From: Azolla caroliniana
Lineage: Eukaryota; Plantae; Polypodiophyta
Length of the DNA stretch: 64,000 bases
Direction: 5' to 3'
Assembly (NCBI GenBank): GCA_043228905.1
Contig: JBHGNT010000010.1
Location: forward strand, 11,470,001 to 11,534,000
Below are positions 15,501-56,490 of this stretch, piece after piece. The number at the start of each line of letters is the position of its first letter. Within the stretch, counting starts at the first letter, position 1. A program made the translations under genes and the position numbers. A model generated the notes under the pieces. It saw only the letters and a list, made by a program, of their open reading frames with translations, was not told the origin of the DNA and searched no databases.

Positions 15501-16794
15501 GGGGAAATTAGACCGGAAATCTCGGCCATGCATATATCTCGGTTACGGCGATGATGAGTTCGGCTATCGGCAATGGGACTTAGCCGAGAAGAAGGTGATT
15601 AGGAGCTGAGACATTGTCTTCATGGAAGAGAAGAAAGTGATTGATTGGGAGAACGAGGAAAGGTCTCTAACCACCGAATTGAGCCGAGTCAATGCTTGGC
15701 TAGATCGTGTAGATGACGGTTCGATTGAAATTGAACCCGTACCAGTCGATCGATCTAATACTCGGCAAAATCGAGAAATGACTAATGATCAAGGGGAGTC
15801 AGCCGAACAAGGAACCGAAATTGACATGGCCGAAGAGGTTGAAGACGAACTAACCATACCGAACGTAGGCCGAAGATACCCCCTTAGAGAGCGAAGAGCC
15901 CCTCGAAGATTTCCGGATGAAGAATGTGTACTGCTAATTGATGAGGGGAGCCGGAAAGCTACGAAGAAGCTAAGAAAGATACCCACAACCGAGAGTGGTT
16001 ACGTGCCATGCAAGAGGAGATGGATTCCTTGCGTAAGAACCACACATACAAATTGACCGAGTTGTCGAAGGGGAAGAAGGCACTCCGAAATAAGTGGGTA
16101 TACAAGTTGAAACCGGGAGATGGCCGAAATCCACCTAGATACAAAGCACGAATTGTCGTAAAAGGGTTTCAATAGAAGAAAGGCGTGGATTTTGATGAAA
16201 TATTTGCCCTGTTAGTGAAAATAGCATCCATCCAAACTGTGTTGAACATTGTGGCAAGCATGGATCTCGAAGTTGAACAATTGGATGTCAAGACGACGTT
16301 TCTACATGGAGATCTCGAAGAGGAGATATATATGCAGCAACCGGAAGGATTCGTAATGAAAGGTAAAGCAAACATGGTATGCCGATTGAGGAAGAGTCTG
16401 TACGGGTTGAAGCAGGCTCCATGGCAATGGTACCGAAAATTCAAATCCTTCATGACCGAAAACGGGTACCACAAAATGCAAGCCGATCACTGCGTATTTT
16501 TTAAGATTGCTTAAAGTGTGCGGCACTTCATCGAGGGTTGTTTGGGGTGGACTCAAGTTTAGATCTTATTTGTATGTCTAAACATAAGTAGTGATATAGT
16601 TTTAGAAGAATAGAAAAGTGAGGGCGTGGGTGGGGGTTAGGGGAGTGTAGCTTGTTGAAATTATCAAAAGTATTTAAACCTAATCAAAGTTTTTAGAATA
16701 TATTAAAGATCATTGGGATAACTTAAGTTATTAGACAACAATAACGTACTATTAAAACACCAATATAGAGTATTATTAAAACGGGACCACACGC

Positions 16795-17345
16795 TTAGAT
16801 GAACGGGAGTTGTTTAAACACACGCTTAAGCAAACACTTAAAAGAAAGATTATTATAAAAAATAAGAATAAAAATAAAAATAGAAAAGAGAGATTGAGAT
16901 TAAAAAATGATTATGGTTAAGAAGGGATTATGATTAAGGGGGAAGGGGTTGCTAAACAAAGTACTTAAACGAATGTTTAAACAAATATTTAGATAAGAAA
17001 ACACTTGGGCAAACACTTAACGCAAGGTTAGGATTAAAAGAGAAGGGAGGGATTATGGTTAAAGAAAAGGGGTCATGGTTGAGAAGAGAATGATTATGAT
17101 TAAGAGAGGAGAATACTTAAACAAATGTTTAAACAAAAAGTTAAACCTAAAAATGATTGAACAAGTACTTAAAAAAAGGGGTTAAACAAGTACGTAATAA
17201 AAATGTTTATTAAACAAGTACTTAATAGAAAATGATTAAATAAATGCTTAAAAACTTAAGACAAAATTTTTTTTGATAAAAAAGTGATTAAACAAGTACT
17301 TAATAAAAATTTATTAAATAAGTACTTAAGAACTTAAGACAAAAA
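16795..17345. repeat. Degenerate AT-rich repeat array (TTAAACAAGTACTTAA-like units) in the PLE 3' UTR
   Basis: Many copies of AAACAAGTACTTAA / AAATGTTTAA / AAACACTTAA / ATGATTA. Confidence 0.7.
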
Positions 17346-17400
17346 ATTAGATAAGAGCAACACATAGAAGGAAAGAAAGTTTTACTATCATAAGGCAACG

Positions 17401-17446
17401 ATCGGCAAATGCATTTCGCCTCGATGGAGGCTCTTCAGTGCCCGAT
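17401..17446 (-). ncRNA. Minimal type-I hammerhead ribozyme
   Basis: Minus strand reads ATCGGGCA-CTGAAGA-GCCTC(CATC)GAGGC-GAAA-TGCA-TT-TGCCGAT: CUGAnGA and GAAA cores, 5-bp stem II, palindromic ATGCAT stem III, AUU site, 7-bp stem I with one bulge. Confidence 0.85.
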
Positions 17447-17608
17447 GTACAAATGATGAAAACTAAGCCTACTAGGTTGCTCTTTTTATAGGGAGAGGGA
17501 GGAGAGTCCTTTGTATGTGGGACATACAAAAGTGTGTACAAAGGGAAGGTAAAAGAGTGTACACAAGACTTTAGGTGGGGGTTAAGAGGGGTGAGAGTAC
17601 ATAAAACA

Positions 17609-18553
17609 TTAGGTGGGGGGAAAGGATGCGTGTACTAGGTGGTTTCTTAGTTTTTTACCATTTAGCCAACACGTGAGAGGGGGTGTAAGGGAACTGTATT
17701 GTGGTTGTCCTAGAAGGGGTTTAAGTTTGTTTCTCACGAGCGCTCCGATTTGGAGTTTTTTGATACATGGGGAGTATCGAAGCTTAAAAACAATGGGTGG
17801 AGGTTTTTTGTTGTTGGGTTGGTTAGAGAGTAGTTGGTTTCGTATGGAGTAGGGGACGGTCGAAAAACACTTGAGTAGGAACTTCGATGGGTAGCCCCTA
17901 GCTCTTAGGCGGTCGTAGAACTTTTTGCGTAGTTCCATGTAGCCATTTTCTGAGCTCTCCCGGATAGCATACCGTTTTAGTTCGCCCGTGATGAAGCCCT
18001 TTTTGTGTGCTATGGGGTGCGAGGATTTCCACGGGAGGTACATGTAGGCATTGAGAGGTTTTTGGTGGCATGTGGTGTCGAGGATGCCGAATTCTTTAAA
18101 GTATGGGCCTTTGAAGAAGATGACGTCCAGGATGGTGATCTCTTTAGGGGAGGTTGTTGATTCAATACGGATGTGTTGTTGTAGAGGCACGCCGTATTGG
18201 TGTAAGAAGGTGTGAAGTGTATCGGGGGAACCTTCCCAAACTCCTATGACATCATCGATGTAGCATTTGTAGTAGAGTAGTTGCGGTGTTTGGAAAGCTA
18301 GGTTGTCGTCCTCTAGCTGTGAAAGAAACAAGCAAGCGTAAACAACCGCAAAATTACTACCCATCGCAGTGCCTTTAATTTGTAACCAAAAAGCATTATT
18401 AAAGGAGAGAAAATTGTTTCTAAGTATTAGTTCGGCAACACTCATAATGATTTTGGTTTTGTGTGGTGGGAAATGATGTGAAATAGATTTTTTAAAAACC
18501 AATAGACCTTCCGTGGTAGGTATACTGGGATATAGTGACACTACGTCAAAAGA
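17609..18553 (-). CDS. Penelope-like reverse transcriptase, 5'-truncated at motif A, no C-terminal endonuclease
   Basis: SFDVVSLYPSIP (motif A), QIKGTAMGS (B), YIDD (C), ILDV (E), and a PLE-type thumb (KP...YLPWKSSHP..HKKGF..GEL.R, RLRARGYP); no stops; ends VHASFPPT* with no GIY-YIG. Confidence 0.88.
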   Translation of the reverse strand, partial: SFDVVSLYPSIPTTEGLLVFKKSISHHFPPHKTKIIMSVAELILRNNFLSFNNAFWLQIKGTAMGSNFAVVYACLFLSQLEDDNLAFQTPQLLYYKCYIDDVIGVWEGSPDTLHTFLHQYGVPLQQHIRIESTTSPKEITILDVIFFKGPYFKEFGILDTTCHQKPLNAYMYLPWKSSHPIAHKKGFITGELKRYAIRESSENGYMELRKKFYDRLRARGYPSKFLLKCFSTVPYSIRNQLLSNQPNNKKPPPIVFKLRYSPCIKKLQIGALVRNKLKPLLGQPQYSSLTPPLTCWLNGKKLRNHLVHASFPPT

Positions 18554-21500
18554 AGTTCGATGGAGGAGATTTCCTTATCCTTTTGTTGTACGTGGACGAC
18601 ATGCTAATTGTCGGACGGGACCATATGAAGATACGAGCACTGAAGAAGGCCTTAAACAGGTCATTCTCGATGAAGGATATGAGTCCGGCAAAGCAAATAT
18701 TGGGTATGCACATTGTTCGGGACAGAACAAAGAAATTGTTATGGCTATCACAAGAGAAATATGTGACAAAGGTGCTCCAGAGATTTGGCATGGAAGGCGC
18801 GAAACTGGTCAGCTCAACATTGCCGACGAACTGCAAGTTGAGTAAAGATCAATGTCCGAAATCGAAAACCAAAAAGGCCAAGATGTCAAACGTCCCCTAT
18901 GCCTCGGCGGTTGGAAGCCTGATGTATGCAATGGTGTGTACCAGGCCAGACATTGGATACGTTGTCAGAGTGGTCAGTTGATATATGAGAAATCCCGGGA
19001 AAGAGCATTAAGCTGCCGTGAAATGGATATTTTGGTACCTGAGCGGCACCCCGAGCATGTGTCTTCGTTTTGGCTCAGGTAACCCCACATTGGAAGGTTA
19101 CATGGATTCAGACATGTCGGCTAATGCAAATACTAGCCGATCCATGTTCGGATACGTAATGATGTATGCAGGGGGAGCTGTCTTGTGGCAATTGAGGTTG
19201 CAGAAGGCCATGGTGTTGTCGACCACGGAAGCCGAGTACATGGCCGCAACGAAAACCGGCAAGGAAATCATATGGATGAAGGAGTTTATCAGTGAGCTGG
19301 GAATTTGGCAGGAAGAATTCCGACTCTATTGTGATAATCAGAGTGCCAACCACCTTGCGAAAAATGCCACCTACCACTCGAGGACAAAGCACATCCAATG
19401 GAGGTATCATTGGCTTCGGGAGAGGGTAGAAGAAAGGGAGTTCGCTCTAGTAAAGGTCCACACGGCCGAAAATGGATTAAATATGTTGACTAAAGTGTTA
19501 CCAGCCGAAAAGCTGAGTGCGTGCCGACGGAAGATCGGATTGGTGCAGTACCCCATGCCGGAGTGAAGGGGGAGTTTGTTAGGAAACGGGTCCCTCCAGA
19601 TGGGAAGTGAAGAGTCAAGTTGATGAGGAACTCGGCCGATGCCCAAACCGAAATCATGTAGACAACCAATTCGGAAGACTATACTTGTAAAAAGTCTAAA
19701 TATGCCCTTATGGGCTACACTTGTAAATAACCCAAAAGGTGTACTTGTATAAGTACTTAGGGCAATCATAATGTTATGATGATGAGTGATTGTTAAAAGG
19801 TTACTGAGAAGGCTGTAACTGTGTAGCAGTAAGTGAGTGAGAGTCAGAGCATGTGTAACTCTGTAACCGCCTATTGACGAAGTAGAATCTCGAGGTCGTT
19901 GCCTTGGATCTTCTAGTTGTACTCCTCCTTTTAACATAGTGATTCTGTTTCTCGAGGTCGTTGCCTTGGATCTTCTAGTTGTACTCCTCCTTTCTCGGGG
20001 TTTTTGGACCCCCGTGGTTTTTTCCCATTTTGGGTTTCCACGTTAAAATCGCGTGTTTCTCTCTTTTGTTTATTTCTATTTTTGTACTCTGTCTGAGTGC
20101 ATTCTATTTTACGTTCCCTGCACTCGAACATCCGAATGAGAAGCCGGTTGTGGCCAGTCACGATTATCGACAATAAACATGTTATTAGAATGGTTAAGGA
20201 TTTGATATGTGTATAACAAGGTTGTGGGTTCAAATCTTTTCGAGGCATGATGTGAGTGTCATCATGAGACTATCCCCCTTCTTCGACGACACGTCTCACG
20301 GGTCGTAGGGCTTGTAGTAGGACCTGGTTTATGAGGATAGTCACGATGAAATGTGGTGTGACCATGTCTGCGGCATTGGAAAGATTTGTTGCAGGTTCCC
20401 AAGTTCGATCGTTGGGGGTATAGCCTACCCAATCAACCAAGTAATACAACTTGTTGCGCACGATTTTAGAATCGAGAATGGCAACAACCTCAAATTCAAG
20501 TCCTTCCAAGAACTCAACAGGTGGTGGGGGGGTTATAAGATGACCCGGAATGGAACTTGTGGCATAAGGTTCCAAAAGGGATACATGAAACACCAGATGA
20601 AGACGCATGTGCGGAGGGAGGCCAAGACGAAATGCAACATCACTTATCTTACTGGTGATCATGTATGGGCCAAAACATTGGTAATCCAATTTACCGCAAG
20701 GCCGAGTACTCTTGATGTTGTGTTGGAGAAGCCATACACGATCCCCAACACGGAATTTTTTTGAGGAATCTAGGTGATGACGATCCACAAGCCTCTTGTG
20801 TGTAACTTGAGCATCATGCAAATTGTGAAGAATGGTAGCGTGAATTTCTTGGAGGCGACTAAGACGATCCTCAACAATAGGGCTGGTAGGCACTTCTGGA
20901 TGCGCTTTCATTGTCCACCGAGGATGACGGCCCGTATTTGCAAAAAATGGGGAATATCCCATAGAAGAATGGACTAAGTTGTTGTAAGCGAATTCAGCCA
21001 AGTGCAAAAAATCAACCCAATCATCTTGTTGGTAGTTGATGAAACAACGAATATATTGCCATATATTGCTCCAATTTTTGGTTGGTATGTTCCGTTTGGC
21101 CATTAGTCTCAGGATGATAGCCCAAAGAAAGCTTAGCCGAAATTTGGAGAAGTTTGAGTGTGTGCTTCCAAAACTTTGAGATAAATTGTGAACCCTGATC
21201 ACTAATAATATCATTTGGAAGACCATGGTGCTTAAATACCTCCCGCATAACTAGATCGACCGCTTCTTGACTAGTAATAGACTTCGTACATGGCAAGAAA
21301 TGTGCCATTTTGGTAAGTCGATCAACCACTATGAGAATTGCATCATAACCTTTTGAAACTGGGAGATCAGTAATGAAATCCAAGGATATTGACTTCCAAG
21401 GATTTTCCAGAATAGGAAGTGGTTGTAGTAAGCAATAGGATCGACAACATGTATCACAACTGCGAACATACTCCTCAACAAAATGACGAAGGCAAGGCCA

Positions 21501-34633: not shown

Positions 34634-35354
34634 TGACAGGAACTACACGCTCCGATGAACACCGCTCGGCCGCAACCGAGCTTAGAATCAAACACAGAAA
34701 ACCGGGAATAAATGCATGACACAGAGAAGACAAGAGTACACCGGATGTTAACGTGGAAAACCCAAACTAGGGAAAAACCACGGCAGCCCACAGACTGCAA
34801 ACTATCACTATATCACAATGATTACAACAATGAGCTCACGGAGGCAACGACCTCGTGCTCACGATCTTCGCCACAGGCGGCGGTTACAACAGAGGCAACG
34901 ACCTCTTACTCTCTCTCTCTCTCTGTGCACTGTTACGCGCTATCTGATCTAGCGCCAACAAGAATGACAACAACACTCTCCTTCTAAGTTTGCCCTAAGT
35001 CATATTTATACTGATATGACTTTTCGGCTATTTACAAATATAGCCCCAATGGCCTCTCAAGAAACATATTTACGAATATGTCCCTTCATCCGGTGAGCAC
35101 TCCTCACCGGGCCTGCATCATCCATCTCTTGCCGGGCACTTGTCATTCGGTTCTCACCGGGTCTTCACCATCCGGCTCTTGCGAGGTACTTCTCATCCGG
35201 TTCTCACCGGGTCTTCCGTAGCCGGGTACTCCTCGTTCGGTTCTCACCGGGTCTTCCGTAACCGGGTACTCTTCATCCGGTTTCGGCCTTGGCCGAGTTT
35301 GCTCATCAACACTGTTCTTCTCACTTCCCATCCGGAGGGACCTGTCTCCCAACA
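34634..35354 (-). mobile_element. Solo LTR (Copia type, family of 55642-56490)
   Basis: TG...CA ends, TSD AATGG (34629-34633 and 35355-35359), internal CCGGTTCTCACCGGG repeats. Confidence 0.92.
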
Positions 35355-42787: not shown

Positions 42788-43020
42788 GGCGTTGAACCAA
42801 TTTGGTTCAACATAATGCCTAGTGCCTTCTTTTATAGTGTTGTCAGGAGTAATCCTGAAACTTCTAGAATGTTCCAGAGAAATCCGGAATATACATTACT
42901 TTCTTATAATAAAACATAAATGAAAATAATATCCTGTGAATTACAATAGATGGTGTGATGGTTAAGAGCTCGACCCATATACCATAAGGTCATGGGTTCG
43001 AGTCTTGCCATATCCTAACA
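42788..43020 (-). repeat. Inverted partial copy (233 bp) of the LTR at 43542-43985
   Basis: Near-identical reverse complement of 43542-43774. Confidence 0.9.
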
Positions 43021-43541
43021 CGAAGCATTGTTCTGGGAGTGGCTTCGTTAGGCAATCGACGATGTTCACCTTGGTGTCGATCTTCCGGACTTAGAGTTTC
43101 TTCTCGGTCACGAGCTCTTGGATATGATGATACCGCAGCTCAATGTGCTTCGTCTTCGCATGGTAGATGGGATTGCTGATGAGGTGTATTGCGCTCTGTG
43201 AGTCGCAATAGATAGTCGGCGTTGGTCGACTTAAGCACGAAAGCCCACAACTTTTTGCTGTAGTCGTCAATGAATGCCACAAAGTATTGTCCCCCTTGAT
43301 GCGATGGAGCATCTACGTAGCACAGATCTGTGTGTTCTAGTTCCAGTGTAGCTTCTCTTCTCCTTGGTGTTCTCGTGTGGAATGCAACTTTGTTTTGCTT
43401 TCCAACTAGGCAGTCAACACACTTCTCCAGGTGCACTCCTTTCACTTCTAGGAGAAGCTTATGATCAACTAGGATGTCCATCCCCTTTTCACTCATGTGG
43501 CCCAACCTATTATGCCATAACTCACCTCTTGAGTCGGCTAC
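43021..43541 (-). pseudogene. Inverted Copia fragments (RNase H 43021 to about 43230; pre-integrase/integrase about 43232-43541)
   Basis: YCDSQSAIHL..NP.YHAKTKHIE and GHMSEKG...CVDCL.GKQ...FIDDYS motifs. Confidence 0.85.
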
Positions 43542-43985
43542 TGTCAGGATATGGCAAGACTCAAACCCATGACCTTATGGTATATGGGTCGAGCTCTTAA
43601 CCATCACACCATCTATTGTAATTCACAGGATATTATTTTCATTTATGTTTTATTATAAGAAAGTAATGTATATTCCGGATTTCTCTGGAACATTCTAGAA
43701 GTTTCAGGATTACTCCTGACAACACTATAAAAGAAGGCACTAGGCATTATGTTGAACCAAATCAGTTCAACGCCAGTCTTAAGCCTCTTAGCCGCTTGTA
43801 CTTATCTTTTCATATAATATATTAGCTGTTGTCATCATTTTTCTCTCTCTTTCATCCTCGCTATCTCTCTCTCTCCTCCTCTCACTTCCTCTCTCGGGAA
43901 TCTTACGCAGTTCCGTCCTCTTAGTACTAATAGTACTGCTCTTCTTAGTACTAATTCCATCTCTGCTTTAGTACTATTGTTGACA
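43542..43985 (+). repeat. LTR (TGTCA...TGACA), related to the chromovirus LTR at 12562-12938
   Basis: Terminal inverted TGTCA/TGACA, TATA at about 43726, CT-rich tract, followed by CTTCG and resumption of the C2 RNase H end. Confidence 0.82.
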
Positions 43986-49183: not shown

Positions 49184-49816
49184 ATGGCCATGGCGTCCTT
49201 CGTGAGGACGACAATCACAATCACAATCACAAGGTCTGTGAATCCCCTGCCATCTCTACCTTCCTCCTCCTCCTCCTCCTCCTCCTGCAGAGCAACCGCT
49301 CTTCTTCTGTCCAGAAAACCGCACTCTCGTTATCCTCACCATGTCAGAGCCCTCATCCATACACCACGGAGGCCCAAGAAACAACCTGCGTCTGTCTCAT
49401 GCCAAGCTGTTGATGGGAATTCTACGAGATCTCCATCACGGGAAGGATCAGAAGATATGATTGATGTCGAGGGAGAGGATTCTACGACGTCTTCTTCAGA
49501 CCTGATTTCTGCTTCTTCAGAGCAGATTGAAGCACAAGAGAGCCTTGGCCGAGCTCTGAACGAGCTGAGGAAAGAGAAGGCGGAGAAGGAAGGAAAAGAG
49601 AATCCATCAAAGACTGAAGAATTCTGGCTAGGAGTGTTGGAAGAGACGAGGTTGATTGAGTGGCCATCTCTGCAGAGAGTCCTGAGCACAACAGGTGTGG
49701 TTCTGAGCATCATATTTGGATCCTCTCTCGTACTGCTCACTGTTAATGCCTTGCTCGCTGAGCTCTCGGATGTGGTCTTTAAGAACACCTCAGTTCTTCC
49801 ATCTCCTCCTCTGTAA
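49184..49816 (+). CDS. SECE1: Chloroplast (thylakoid) preprotein translocase subunit SecE, single coding exon
   Basis: Ser/Thr/Arg-rich transit peptide, acidic linker, SecE signature EFW.GV.EE...IEWP and a single TM segment (TTGVVLSIIFGSSLVLLTVNALLAELSD) recognisable as plant SECE1. Confidence 0.92.
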   Translation: MAMASFVRTTITITITRSVNPLPSLPSSSSSSSSCRATALLLSRKPHSRYPHHVRALIHTPRRPKKQPASVSCQAVDGNSTRSPSREGSEDMIDVEGEDSTTSSSDLISASSEQIEAQESLGRALNELRKEKAEKEGKENPSKTEEFWLGVLEETRLIEWPSLQRVLSTTGVVLSIIFGSSLVLLTVNALLAELSDVVFKNTSVLPSPPL

Positions 49817-55641: not shown

Positions 55642-56490
55642 TGTTAGGAAATAGGTCCCTCCGGATGGGAAGTGAGAAGAACAGTACTGATGAGTAAACT
55701 TGGCCGAGGCCGAAACCGAATGTGGACTACCCGGCAACGGAAGACCCAGTGAGAACCGGATGACGAGTACCCGGCAAGAGCCGGATGGTGAAGACCCGGT
55801 GAGAACCGGATGTGGTGTACCCGGCAAGCGCCGGATGAGGAGTACCCGGCTATGGAGGACCCGGTGAGAACCGGATGACGAGTACCCGGCAAGAGCCGGA
55901 TGGTGAAGACCCGGTGAGAACCGGATGTGGTGTACCCGGCAAGCACCGGATGAGGAGTACCTGGCTACGGAGGACCCGGTGAGAACCGGATGACGAGTAC
56001 CCGGCAAGAGCCGGATGATGAAGGCCCGGTGAGAAGTGTTGACCGGATGAAGGGACATATTTGTAAATATGTTTTCTGAGAGTCCATCGGGGCTATATTT
56101 GTAAATAGCCGAAAAGTCATATTAGTATAAATATGACTTAGGGCAAACTTAGAGGGTGTTGTTGTCATTTTCTTGTTGGCGCAAGATTAGAGCGTGCAAC
56201 TGTGTACAGAGAGAGTGAGAGAGAGGAAGAGGTTGTTGCCTTTGATTGTAACCGCCGCCTGTGGCGAAGATAGTAAGCTCGAGGTCGTGGCCTCGGTGCT
56301 TTCTTATTGTACATTCTAACATAATAAGAAAATGTACAATAAGAAAGCACACCGAGTTGGGTTTTCCACGTAAACATCCTGTGTACTCTTCTCTCTATCG
56401 TGTTGTGTTTCATTCCCTGTTTTTTTTGTGTTTTATTCTAGGCTCAGTTGTGGCCGAGCGTTGTTCATCGGGAGCGTGTAGTTCCTGTCA
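55642..56490 (+). mobile_element. Solo LTR with an internal tandem-repeat array
   Basis: TG...CA, TSD TGTTG/TGCTG, homologous to 34634-35354; GGTGAGAACCGGATG repeats about 55730-56050. Confidence 0.9.

What the first reader, a model, noticed from the sequence alone, without database searches (positions are those of the whole stretch)
17401..17446. Minimal hammerhead ribozyme with a palindromic stem III in the PLE 3' UTR
Seen, about 160 nt after the RT stop on the same strand: stem I (ATCGGGCA/TGCCGAT), CUGAAGA, stem II GCCTC/GAGGC, GAAA, a self-complementary ATGCAT stem III and an AUU triplet. Cleavage is predicted between 17408 and 17407. Known: PLE pseudo-LTRs carry minimal type-I hammerheads whose short palindromic stem III favours dimeric cleavage. 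Inference: the ribozyme processes the element's RNA, and tandem or trans copies supply the partner. It also independently supports the PLE call.
Basis: partly seen in the sequence, partly recalled or inferred. Interest (0 to 1): 0.8.

Follow-up and report, generated by a model that had tools for sequence, protein, structure and literature searches.

The report
Hammerhead in endonuclease-free plant Penelope element
This is a conserved hammerhead-shaped RNA motif, predicted to cut itself in pairs, in a broken copy of a plant jumping gene that has no DNA-cutting enzyme; the kind is already known, but here it sits just behind a likely start signal for transcription and about 900 bases away from the end at which this copy was pasted in.

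Summary
The anatomy is as described (minus strand, 17446-17401). It is the only descriptor match in the window, with 0 of 200 shuffles giving a strict match, and it recurs in 6 of 6 related loci. It is a canonical-type, palindromic-helix-III type I hammerhead rather than a strict 'minimal' one. The host is a 5'-truncated, endonuclease-less Penelope-like element (16503-18549) inserted in a Copia RT gene. Its RT groups with Selaginella, Ginkgo and Cryptomeria RTs; the plant is probably a fern. The predicted cut lies 905 nt upstream of the insertion's 3' end, so it did not make the priming end. A TATA box lies 51-52 nt before the core in 7 of 7 copies, which would place the ribozyme about 50 nt from the 5' end of pLTR-driven RNA. 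Likely role: dimer-dependent 5' trimming or unit-length release. Against: no two-sided covariation, no Rfam match at threshold, no RNA data, cleavage untested. The scan noted the same kind twice elsewhere in this genome. New member of a known kind.

The parts
17401..17446 (-). Type I hammerhead motif: helix I (inner 4 bp conserved), CUGAAGA, 5-bp helix II with G10.1-C11.1 and 4-nt loop, GAAA, palindromic AUGCAU helix III, AUU triplet; predicted cut between 17408 and 17407
17378..17464 (-). Predicted extended helix I enclosing the ribozyme; the outer register differs between the two subfamilies
   Evidence: z-score -1.49 only, and the opposite strand folds as well
17483..17490 (-). TATA-box-like TATAAAAA; predicted pLTR promoter with a start site near 17457
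   Evidence: same offset (-51/-52 from C3) in 7 of 7 copies, the only TATAWAW in the held 3' UTR of 6 of 7; start site inferred from recalled plant TATA spacing
17379..17385 (-). First GTAA after the cut site; candidate 5' splice site of a 5' UTR intron (weak match to consensus)
   Evidence: present 16-22 nt after the cut in 7 of 7 copies; no RNA evidence
17609..18550 (-). C-terminal 313 codons of the PLE RT (from motif A through thumb to stop); no C-terminal GIY-YIG; 5'-truncated; 4 amino-acid differences from L001 including R to C just before YIDD
17148..17344 (.). AT-rich degenerate tandem repeats (26-28 and 78 nt periods) in the poorly conserved part of the 3' UTR
16512..16588 (-). Conserved 3'-terminal element: predicted 13-bp hairpin, C/A-rich spacer, 7-bp hairpin, just before the A-run at the insertion's 3' junction; candidate RT start signal
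   Evidence: no two-sided covariation; no Rfam match in L001-L006
16503..18549 (-). Whole PLE insertion (2047 nt), junctions ambiguous by a few bases of microhomology
   Evidence: contigs of 4 of 4 runs join 16502 to 18550; 98.6% identical to L001 over 1982 nt; junctions
16176..16502 (+). Copia RT, part before the insertion (RVT_2 profile positions 48-155)
18550..18981 (+). Copia RT, part after the insertion (RVT_2 profile positions 155-237)

Best explanation
The motif is a conserved type I hammerhead fold in the pseudo-LTR of an endonuclease-less Penelope-like retroelement, and it likely cuts the element's RNA about 50 bases from a predicted transcription start, working as a pair. Shown: the anatomy, its conservation, the host element, tandem arrangement of relatives, a TATA box at a fixed distance upstream, and that this insertion's 3' end lies 905 nt downstream of the site. 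Inferred: transcription starts near 17457 in an upstream pLTR and runs through ORF1, ORF2 and the downstream pLTR, so one RNA carries two ribozymes about 5.1 kb apart; the two AUGCAU palindromes pair into a 6-bp helix III (double hammerhead); cleavage trims the 5' end and can release a unit-length RNA. Reverse transcription starts elsewhere, at the conserved 3'-terminal hairpins, on an RNA that is continuous across the ribozyme site (uncleaved there, or re-ligated). This copy was likely primed at a pre-existing break in a Copia element and is dead as an autonomous element.
For: Descriptor hit unique in the window, 0 of 200 shuffles. Motif in 6 of 6 loci whose RT DNA is 82-99% identical to the window's; among the six aligned rows the core varies only at N7 and loop II, and 4 pairs vary on one side while staying paired. 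36 of 40 ribozyme columns identical across window, L003, L004, L005 against 260 of 1066 in the rest of the UTR. Constrained double hammerhead -32.3 kcal/mol against -14.6 per monomer. TATA offset fixed at -51/-52 while the stop-to-core distance varies from 101 to 170 nt. Unit repeats of 5147 nt (L002) and 5139 nt (L004) and an upstream pLTR in L003. Cut-to-terminal-motif distance 638-844 nt in L003-L005. A pLTR start site with a 5' UTR intron is reported for Penelope and Chlamys-3_cRei (PMC8557442); dimer-dependent cleavage for weak-helix-III hammerheads (PMC4209133; PMC7229834).
Against: No pair shows a change on both sides (0 of 18). Rfam gives only Hammerhead_3 at 15.1 bits against a 48.5 cut-off on a 131-nt stretch and no hammerhead in 12 kb or in L001-L006. 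The predicted ground state mispairs U4/G5 with helix III; helix I pair probabilities are 0.2-0.65 in the window and 0.02-0.4 in L003-L006; the unconstrained dimer (-35.9) differs from the active one. AUU is recalled as a slow triplet (no call confirmed a rate). The ribozyme lies in a wider conserved block of about 140 nt, so promoter constraint may account for part of the conservation. One laid contig (X20 record 17) carries a G5A-equivalent change and two helix II breaks. In PAc, cleavage needed protein, was dispensable for insertion, and no RNA-seq ends were found at the site (PMC11167929). L001-L006 are assemblies of a repeated family and may be collapsed.
Confidence: 0.55

Rival explanations
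1. Double cleavage releases a unit-length RNA that is ligated into a circle; RT starts at the terminal hairpins, crosses the re-formed ribozyme junction and can go round more than once, producing partial tandems. This is an extension of the best explanation rather than a full alternative.
For: Proposed for PLEs in PMC4209133. It explains why the insertion crosses an intact site and why tandem units exist. RtcB circularises hammerhead-cut retrozyme RNAs in vitro (PMC7229834).
Against: An uncleaved linear template explains the same DNA; unprocessed RNA was the dominant substrate for PAc in vitro. No RNA data here.
Confidence: 0.2
2. The fold is kept mainly as a protein-binding or structural element at the promoter and first exon and cleaves slowly or only with the element's protein; cleavage has no needed role in transposition.
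For: Predicted ground state is inactive; U at position 17; low in vitro activity of PLE hammerheads; PAc core mutants insert normally; Naiads thrive without hammerheads.
Against: All catalytic-core positions except N7 are invariant in 6 of 6 aligned rows, as expected if catalysis is under selection; but divergence is shallow.
Confidence: 0.2
3. The ribozyme makes or exposes the 3' end used for priming, as in rotifer Terminons where telomere-complementary repeats lie immediately downstream of the hammerhead.
For: Endonuclease-less host; Terminon architecture as described in PMC6431247.
Against: No CCCTAAA next to the ribozyme in the window insert or L001-L006; the window copy and L003-L005 all continue 638-905 nt past the site to a shared terminal motif.
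Confidence: 0.04
4. Chance resemblance to a hammerhead.
For: The bare core pattern is common; Rfam score far below threshold.
Against: similar palindromic type I motifs also turned up beside the RT matches in 3 of 10 distant loci (L008, L011, L013).
Confidence: 0.01

Closest known systems
Endonuclease-deficient PLEs of Selaginella moellendorffii with type I hammerheads in their pLTRs (Gladyshev and Arkhipova 2007, not readable here; hammerheads in Cervera and De la Pena 2014, PMC4209133)
   Same: RT 45% identical to a S. moellendorffii protein over 319 aligned residues; shares the GTAMGSNFAVVYAC stretch with the 'Selagine1' reference row (by eye); no GIY-YIG; type I hammerhead in the terminal repeat.
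   Different: This copy is inside a Copia gene with colinear flanks, not on a telomere; no telomeric repeat beside the ribozyme. The Selaginella hammerhead sequence itself is in a figure that I could not see, so helix III and tertiary contacts were not compared.
Canonical type I hammerheads with weak palindromic helix III (newt/axolotl satellite retrozymes, Schistosoma; D. virilis Penelope variant)
   Same: Short palindromic helix III, G10.1-C11.1, predicted dimer dependence, extended helix I with internal loop.
   Different: Loop II is CAUC/CUUC and the loop 1-loop 2 contacts could not be recognised; U at position 17; partners would be about 5.1 kb apart rather than about 330 nt.
min-HHR of metazoan PLEs (PMC4209133)
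   Same: PLE pLTR location, palindromic 15.2/16.2, G10.1-C11.1, short conserved helix I.
   Different: Has a 2-nt loop 3 and no extra base between 9 and 10.1; helix II is 5 bp.
PLE-X / Chlamys elements of Chara and Selaginella (PMC8557442)
   Same: Endonuclease-less plant PLEs with hammerheads; PLE-X1_cBra has a 3' hammerhead with a palindromic helix III.
   Different: No CxC motif and no IFD-length insertion between RT motifs A and B here; not inserted in 28S rDNA or a microsatellite.

Membership tests
Type I hammerhead ribozyme | Core C3UGANGA9, G12AAA15.1, U16.1, H17 | tested here: met
   triplet AUU
Type I hammerhead ribozyme | Helices II and III closed, helix I open, G10.1-C11.1 | tested here: met
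Type I hammerhead ribozyme | Compensatory base changes in the helices | tested here: inconclusive
   0 of 18 pairs with two-sided change, 4 with one-sided change; only 6 closely related rows
Type I hammerhead ribozyme | Score above an Rfam hammerhead gathering threshold | tested here: not met
   best Hammerhead_3 15.1 of 48.5 bits; none
Type I hammerhead ribozyme | Loop 1-loop 2 tertiary contacts | tested here: inconclusive
   extended helix I with internal loop predicted; known contact nucleotides not recognised by eye
Type I hammerhead ribozyme | Site-specific self-cleavage | not testable with these tools
   needs in vitro assay or raw RNA reads
min-HHR (Cervera and De la Pena 2014) | No helix III or loop 3 beyond the conserved nucleotides | tested here: not met
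   six-base AUGCAU against the definition
min-HHR (Cervera and De la Pena 2014) | [quoted passage not shown] | tested here: not met
   A9 is followed directly by G10.1 in 7 of 7 copies
min-HHR (Cervera and De la Pena 2014) | Palindromic 15.2-16.2 and loop 3 | tested here: met
Endonuclease-less plant PLE (Selaginella type, filed under Coprina in recalled literature) | RT groups with Selaginella and gymnosperm EN- PLE RTs | tested here: met
   27-row clade with SH-aLRT 99 in a quick tree of 85 rows, midpoint-rooted, no published reference sequences included
Endonuclease-less plant PLE (Selaginella type, filed under Coprina in recalled literature) | No GIY-YIG domain at either end | tested here: met
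   motif search negative in ORF1 and ORF2 of L001 and L003; no GIY-YIG family in Pfam; RT stops after the thumb
Endonuclease-less plant PLE (Selaginella type, filed under Coprina in recalled literature) | pLTR or head-to-tail tandem arrangement, 5' truncation | tested here: met
   L002-L004; window copy truncated at RT motif A
Endonuclease-less plant PLE (Selaginella type, filed under Coprina in recalled literature) | Attachment to telomeric repeats | tested here: inconclusive
   not met for this copy (inside Copia, no telomeric array); one short CCCTAAAC follows the terminal motif in L003 (twice) and L004 but not in L002 or L005, and such words also occur in the ORFs; no genome held
Endonuclease-less plant PLE (Selaginella type, filed under Coprina in recalled literature) | Placement inside the published Coprina clade against reference RTs | not tested
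Naiad/Chlamys including PLE-X | CxC motif and IFD insertion | tested here: not met
   no CxC in ORF1 or ORF2 of L001, L003; 59 residues from motif A to GTAMG, like the IFD-less rows
Terminon-type 3' end | Telomere-complementary repeats immediately downstream of the hammerhead | tested here: not met

The most novel reading that the evidence does not exclude
In a vascular-plant lineage of endonuclease-less PLEs, the pLTR is a compact TATA box - hammerhead - splice donor cassette: the ribozyme sits in a first exon of about 70 nt, so cleavage removes the cap and decides whether a transcript becomes spliced mRNA or unspliced template, while a separate 3'-terminal double hairpin starts reverse transcription at chromosome-internal breaks, not only at telomeres. 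That would give a concrete, testable function for PLE hammerheads.
Probability: 0.2. Interest if true: 0.6.

Novelty: new member of a known kind. Interest (0 to 1): 0.3.

Why it matters
Hammerheads in PLE pLTRs, including a Selaginella element of this lineage, are published, so the motif itself is expected. What the hammerhead does for a PLE is still called unclear in PMC8557442. This family separates the ribozyme from the priming end by 0.6-0.9 kb and places it at a fixed distance behind a TATA box, which makes 5'-end processing, circle formation and bystander models distinguishable by RACE and long reads. It also gives a clean case of an endonuclease-less PLE inserted inside another element rather than on a telomere.

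Tried and rejected
No whole genome is held, so copies could not be counted or their ends mapped; L003 could not be extended. Rfam: no hammerhead in 12 kb or in L001-L006. No second PLE copy or second hammerhead in the window; the other core-pattern matches, such as 55687-55729, fail the helix descriptor. Viral contigs: nothing by DNA pattern or by RT alignment. Genome contigs gave 10 distant loci (25-32% identity) in prokaryotic bins, too distant to align at the ribozyme. No RNA holder listed; the one guessed-RNA run laid gave a decayed copy and contigs cannot show ends; X12 laid nothing. The codon comparison for L006 was out of register and was dropped. The TATA search had a pattern error and was redone. 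The tree is the quick fallback; of 94 candidate ids, P0002, proteins of 400 residues or fewer and those without the DK(N/G)xG anchor (including both animal hits) were left out. PDB sequence search: no match. A literature rate for the AUU triplet was not found. Rejected: Chlamys/PLE-X membership, Terminon-type 3' role, strict min-HHR label.

Full report
Observation. The RT stop is at 17611-17609. The bare core pattern is no evidence (7 matches, 8.9 expected). With helices required, the window has 1 hit, this one; 200 dinucleotide shuffles gave 0.12 loose hits on average and 0 strict hits (the strict criteria were chosen after seeing the motif). Rfam does not recognise it at threshold: nothing in 12 kb, and Hammerhead_3 at 15.1 bits against 48.5 on a 131-nt stretch.

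Host element. The ribozyme lies in a 2047-nt insertion (16503-18549) that splits a Copia RT: Pfam RVT_2 positions 48-155 lie before it and 155-237 after it, and contigs in 4 of 4 laid runs join 16502 to 18550. The 5' junction shares 5 bases with the element's own continuation in L001, and the 3' junction lies in a T-run shared with the element's A-run in L002; a 4-base direct repeat at both sides is also element sequence, so a target-site duplication cannot be told from microhomology. The insert holds the last 313 codons of an RT with no C-terminal endonuclease. A 577-residue protein 98% identical to it fetched six loci. L001-L003 show an ORF1 of about 650 codons, proline-rich at both ends, with no significant Pfam match, overlapping an RT frame that has no ATG near its conserved start. 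No GIY-YIG or CxC motif was found in either ORF of L001 and L003, and motif A to GTAMG spans 59 residues, so there is no IFD. The RT is 45% identical to a Selaginella moellendorffii protein, matches by eye the 'Selagine1' row of the reference alignment in the supplement of PMC8557442, and falls in a 27-row clade (SH-aLRT 99) with Selaginella, Ginkgo and Cryptomeria proteins in a quick tree of 85 rows without published references. A SECE1-like host gene at 49184-49816 has a fern, Adiantum, as its best species-named hit, so the plant is probably a fern. The window copy differs from L001 at 6 synonymous and 4 non-synonymous codons, one next to YIDD.

Conservation. The motif is present in 6 of 6 loci at the same place. 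In six aligned rows (window, L002-L006; L001 is identical to the window here and was left out) the core changes only at N7 and in loop II. Of 18 modelled pairs none changes on both sides and 4 change on one side while staying paired; 96.3% of cells pair. Only 4 bp of helix I next to the core are shared by all; the outer helix has different registers in the two subfamilies. Across window, L003, L004 and L005, 36 of 40 ribozyme columns are identical against 260 of 1066 in the rest of the UTR, but the 46 columns around the TATA box are also conserved (31 of 46). In two further runs several short contigs fit only over about 17403-17442 and run loose on the flanks; one contig of a guessed-RNA run is a decayed copy with a G5A-equivalent change. 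Among 10 distant loci, 3 carry palindromic type I motifs with a four-base helix III.

Classification of the ribozyme. PMC4209133 (parts 1-2 of 4 read) defines the minimal form as lacking helix III and loop 3 beyond the conserved bases, usually with an extra base between positions 9 and 10.1, and the canonical form as having a 1-2 bp helix III with a 2-4 base palindromic loop; it reports canonical type I motifs in Selaginella PLEs. This motif fits the canonical description. As a monomer the predicted ground state mispairs the core; the hammerhead-compatible fold is 1.1 kcal/mol higher in the window and 1.1-3.2 higher in the other copies. A constrained double hammerhead scores -32.3 kcal/mol against -14.6 per monomer, though the unconstrained dimer (-35.9) is a different structure. 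U at position 17 occurs in several PLE hammerheads listed in File S2 of PMC8557442; that AUU is a slow triplet is recalled.

Where it sits in the RNA. First, the insertion continues 905 nt past the predicted cut and ends just after a conserved element with two predicted hairpins (16588-16512), also found 638-844 nt after the cut in L003-L005. So the cut did not make the priming end, and the template was continuous across the site. The Terminon arrangement, with telomere-complementary repeats right after the hammerhead (PMC6431247, passages), is absent. Second, a TATAAAA lies 51-52 nt before C3 in 7 of 7 copies while the stop-to-core distance varies from 101 to 170 nt, and it is the only TATAWAW in the held UTR of 6 of 7. 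A GTAA follows the cut by 16-22 nt in 7 of 7, and a pyrimidine-rich tract with CAG lies 4-17 nt before the ORF1 ATG in L001-L004 (the strand is about 57% pyrimidine overall, so this is weaker than it looks). The leader from cut to ATG in tandem context is 1203-1297 nt with 6-7 ATGs. This matches the pLTR start site plus 5' UTR intron reported for Penelope and Chlamys-3_cRei (PMC8557442). It is inference; no RNA data were available.

Mechanism. Most likely a pLTR-driven transcript carries the ribozyme near its 5' end and again after ORF2, about 5.1 kb on (L002 and L004 repeat units, L003 upstream pLTR; these short-read contigs may be collapsed repeats). The two palindromes would form a double hammerhead, trimming the 5' end and possibly releasing a unit-length RNA. 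Whether that RNA is circularised and used as template, or uncleaved RNA is, cannot be told from DNA. For the one PLE tested, cleavage needed the protein, was dispensable for insertion, and left no RNA-seq ends (PMC11167929, passages), so a slow or bystander role keeps real weight.

Novelty. Hammerheads in PLE pLTRs and EN- PLEs in Selaginella and conifers are in print. Searches returned no paper on fern members or on a TATA-hammerhead cassette in this lineage, but the three primary papers on EN- and conifer PLEs were not readable, one supplement of PMC4209133 was not searched, and figures are not held, so this may be described there. Papers seen: PMC4209133 (parts 1-2, supplement search), PMC8557442 (parts 2-5 of 10, passages, supplement parts 2 and 54 and two searches), and passages only of PMC11167929, PMC6431247, PMC12477314, PMC9033089, PMC7229834, PMC3138052 and bioRxiv 10.64898/2026.07.22.740005. 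Two earlier unreviewed notes on other pieces of this genome reach a similar reading; I had noted the terminal element and the Selaginella link before reading them, took the label 'Coprina' partly from them, and do not count them as evidence. Verdict: a real, ordinary member of a known kind, with a useful layout for testing what PLE hammerheads do.

Noticed in passing
window 49184-49816 (+): Intronless SECE1-like plastid translocase gene, the only host-type gene that I recognised among the 22 ORFs of 200 aa or more; best species-named hit is the fern Adiantum.
   Followed up: partly
window 16497-16506 and 18550-18554: Endonuclease-less PLE inserted inside a Copia RT with microhomology at both junctions and no telomeric repeats: looks like break patching at an internal site.
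   Followed up: partly
window 16512-16588 (-); L002 236-336, L003 410-510 and 5645-5741, L005 2316-2412: Conserved 3'-terminal double hairpin with no Rfam match; candidate RT start signal.
   Followed up: partly
L001 2335-2403; L002 2664; L003 2953: ORF2 overlaps ORF1 by about 0.5 kb of stop-free frame and has no ATG near its conserved start; a frameshift, intron or non-AUG start would be needed.
   Followed up: no
L003 511 and 5751; L004 4939: A single telomere-like CCCTAAAC about 10-20 nt after the terminal motif in one subfamily; absent in L002 and L005; weak.
   Followed up: partly
L008 538 and 2065; L013 2976 and 6353; L011 6045: PLE-like RTs with palindromic type I hammerheads (inverted pairs in L008 and L013) on contigs filed in prokaryotic genome bins, probably eukaryotic contamination.
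   Followed up: no
window 55715-56035 and 35103-35282: 25/50/115-nt tandem arrays within related LTR-element sequences in opposite orientation.
   Followed up: no
window 42788-43774: 233-nt inverted repeat at 98% identity.
   Followed up: no
L001, L003 whole: Strong strand asymmetry of the element: about 12% G on the sense strand, so the cDNA strand is G-rich.
   Followed up: no
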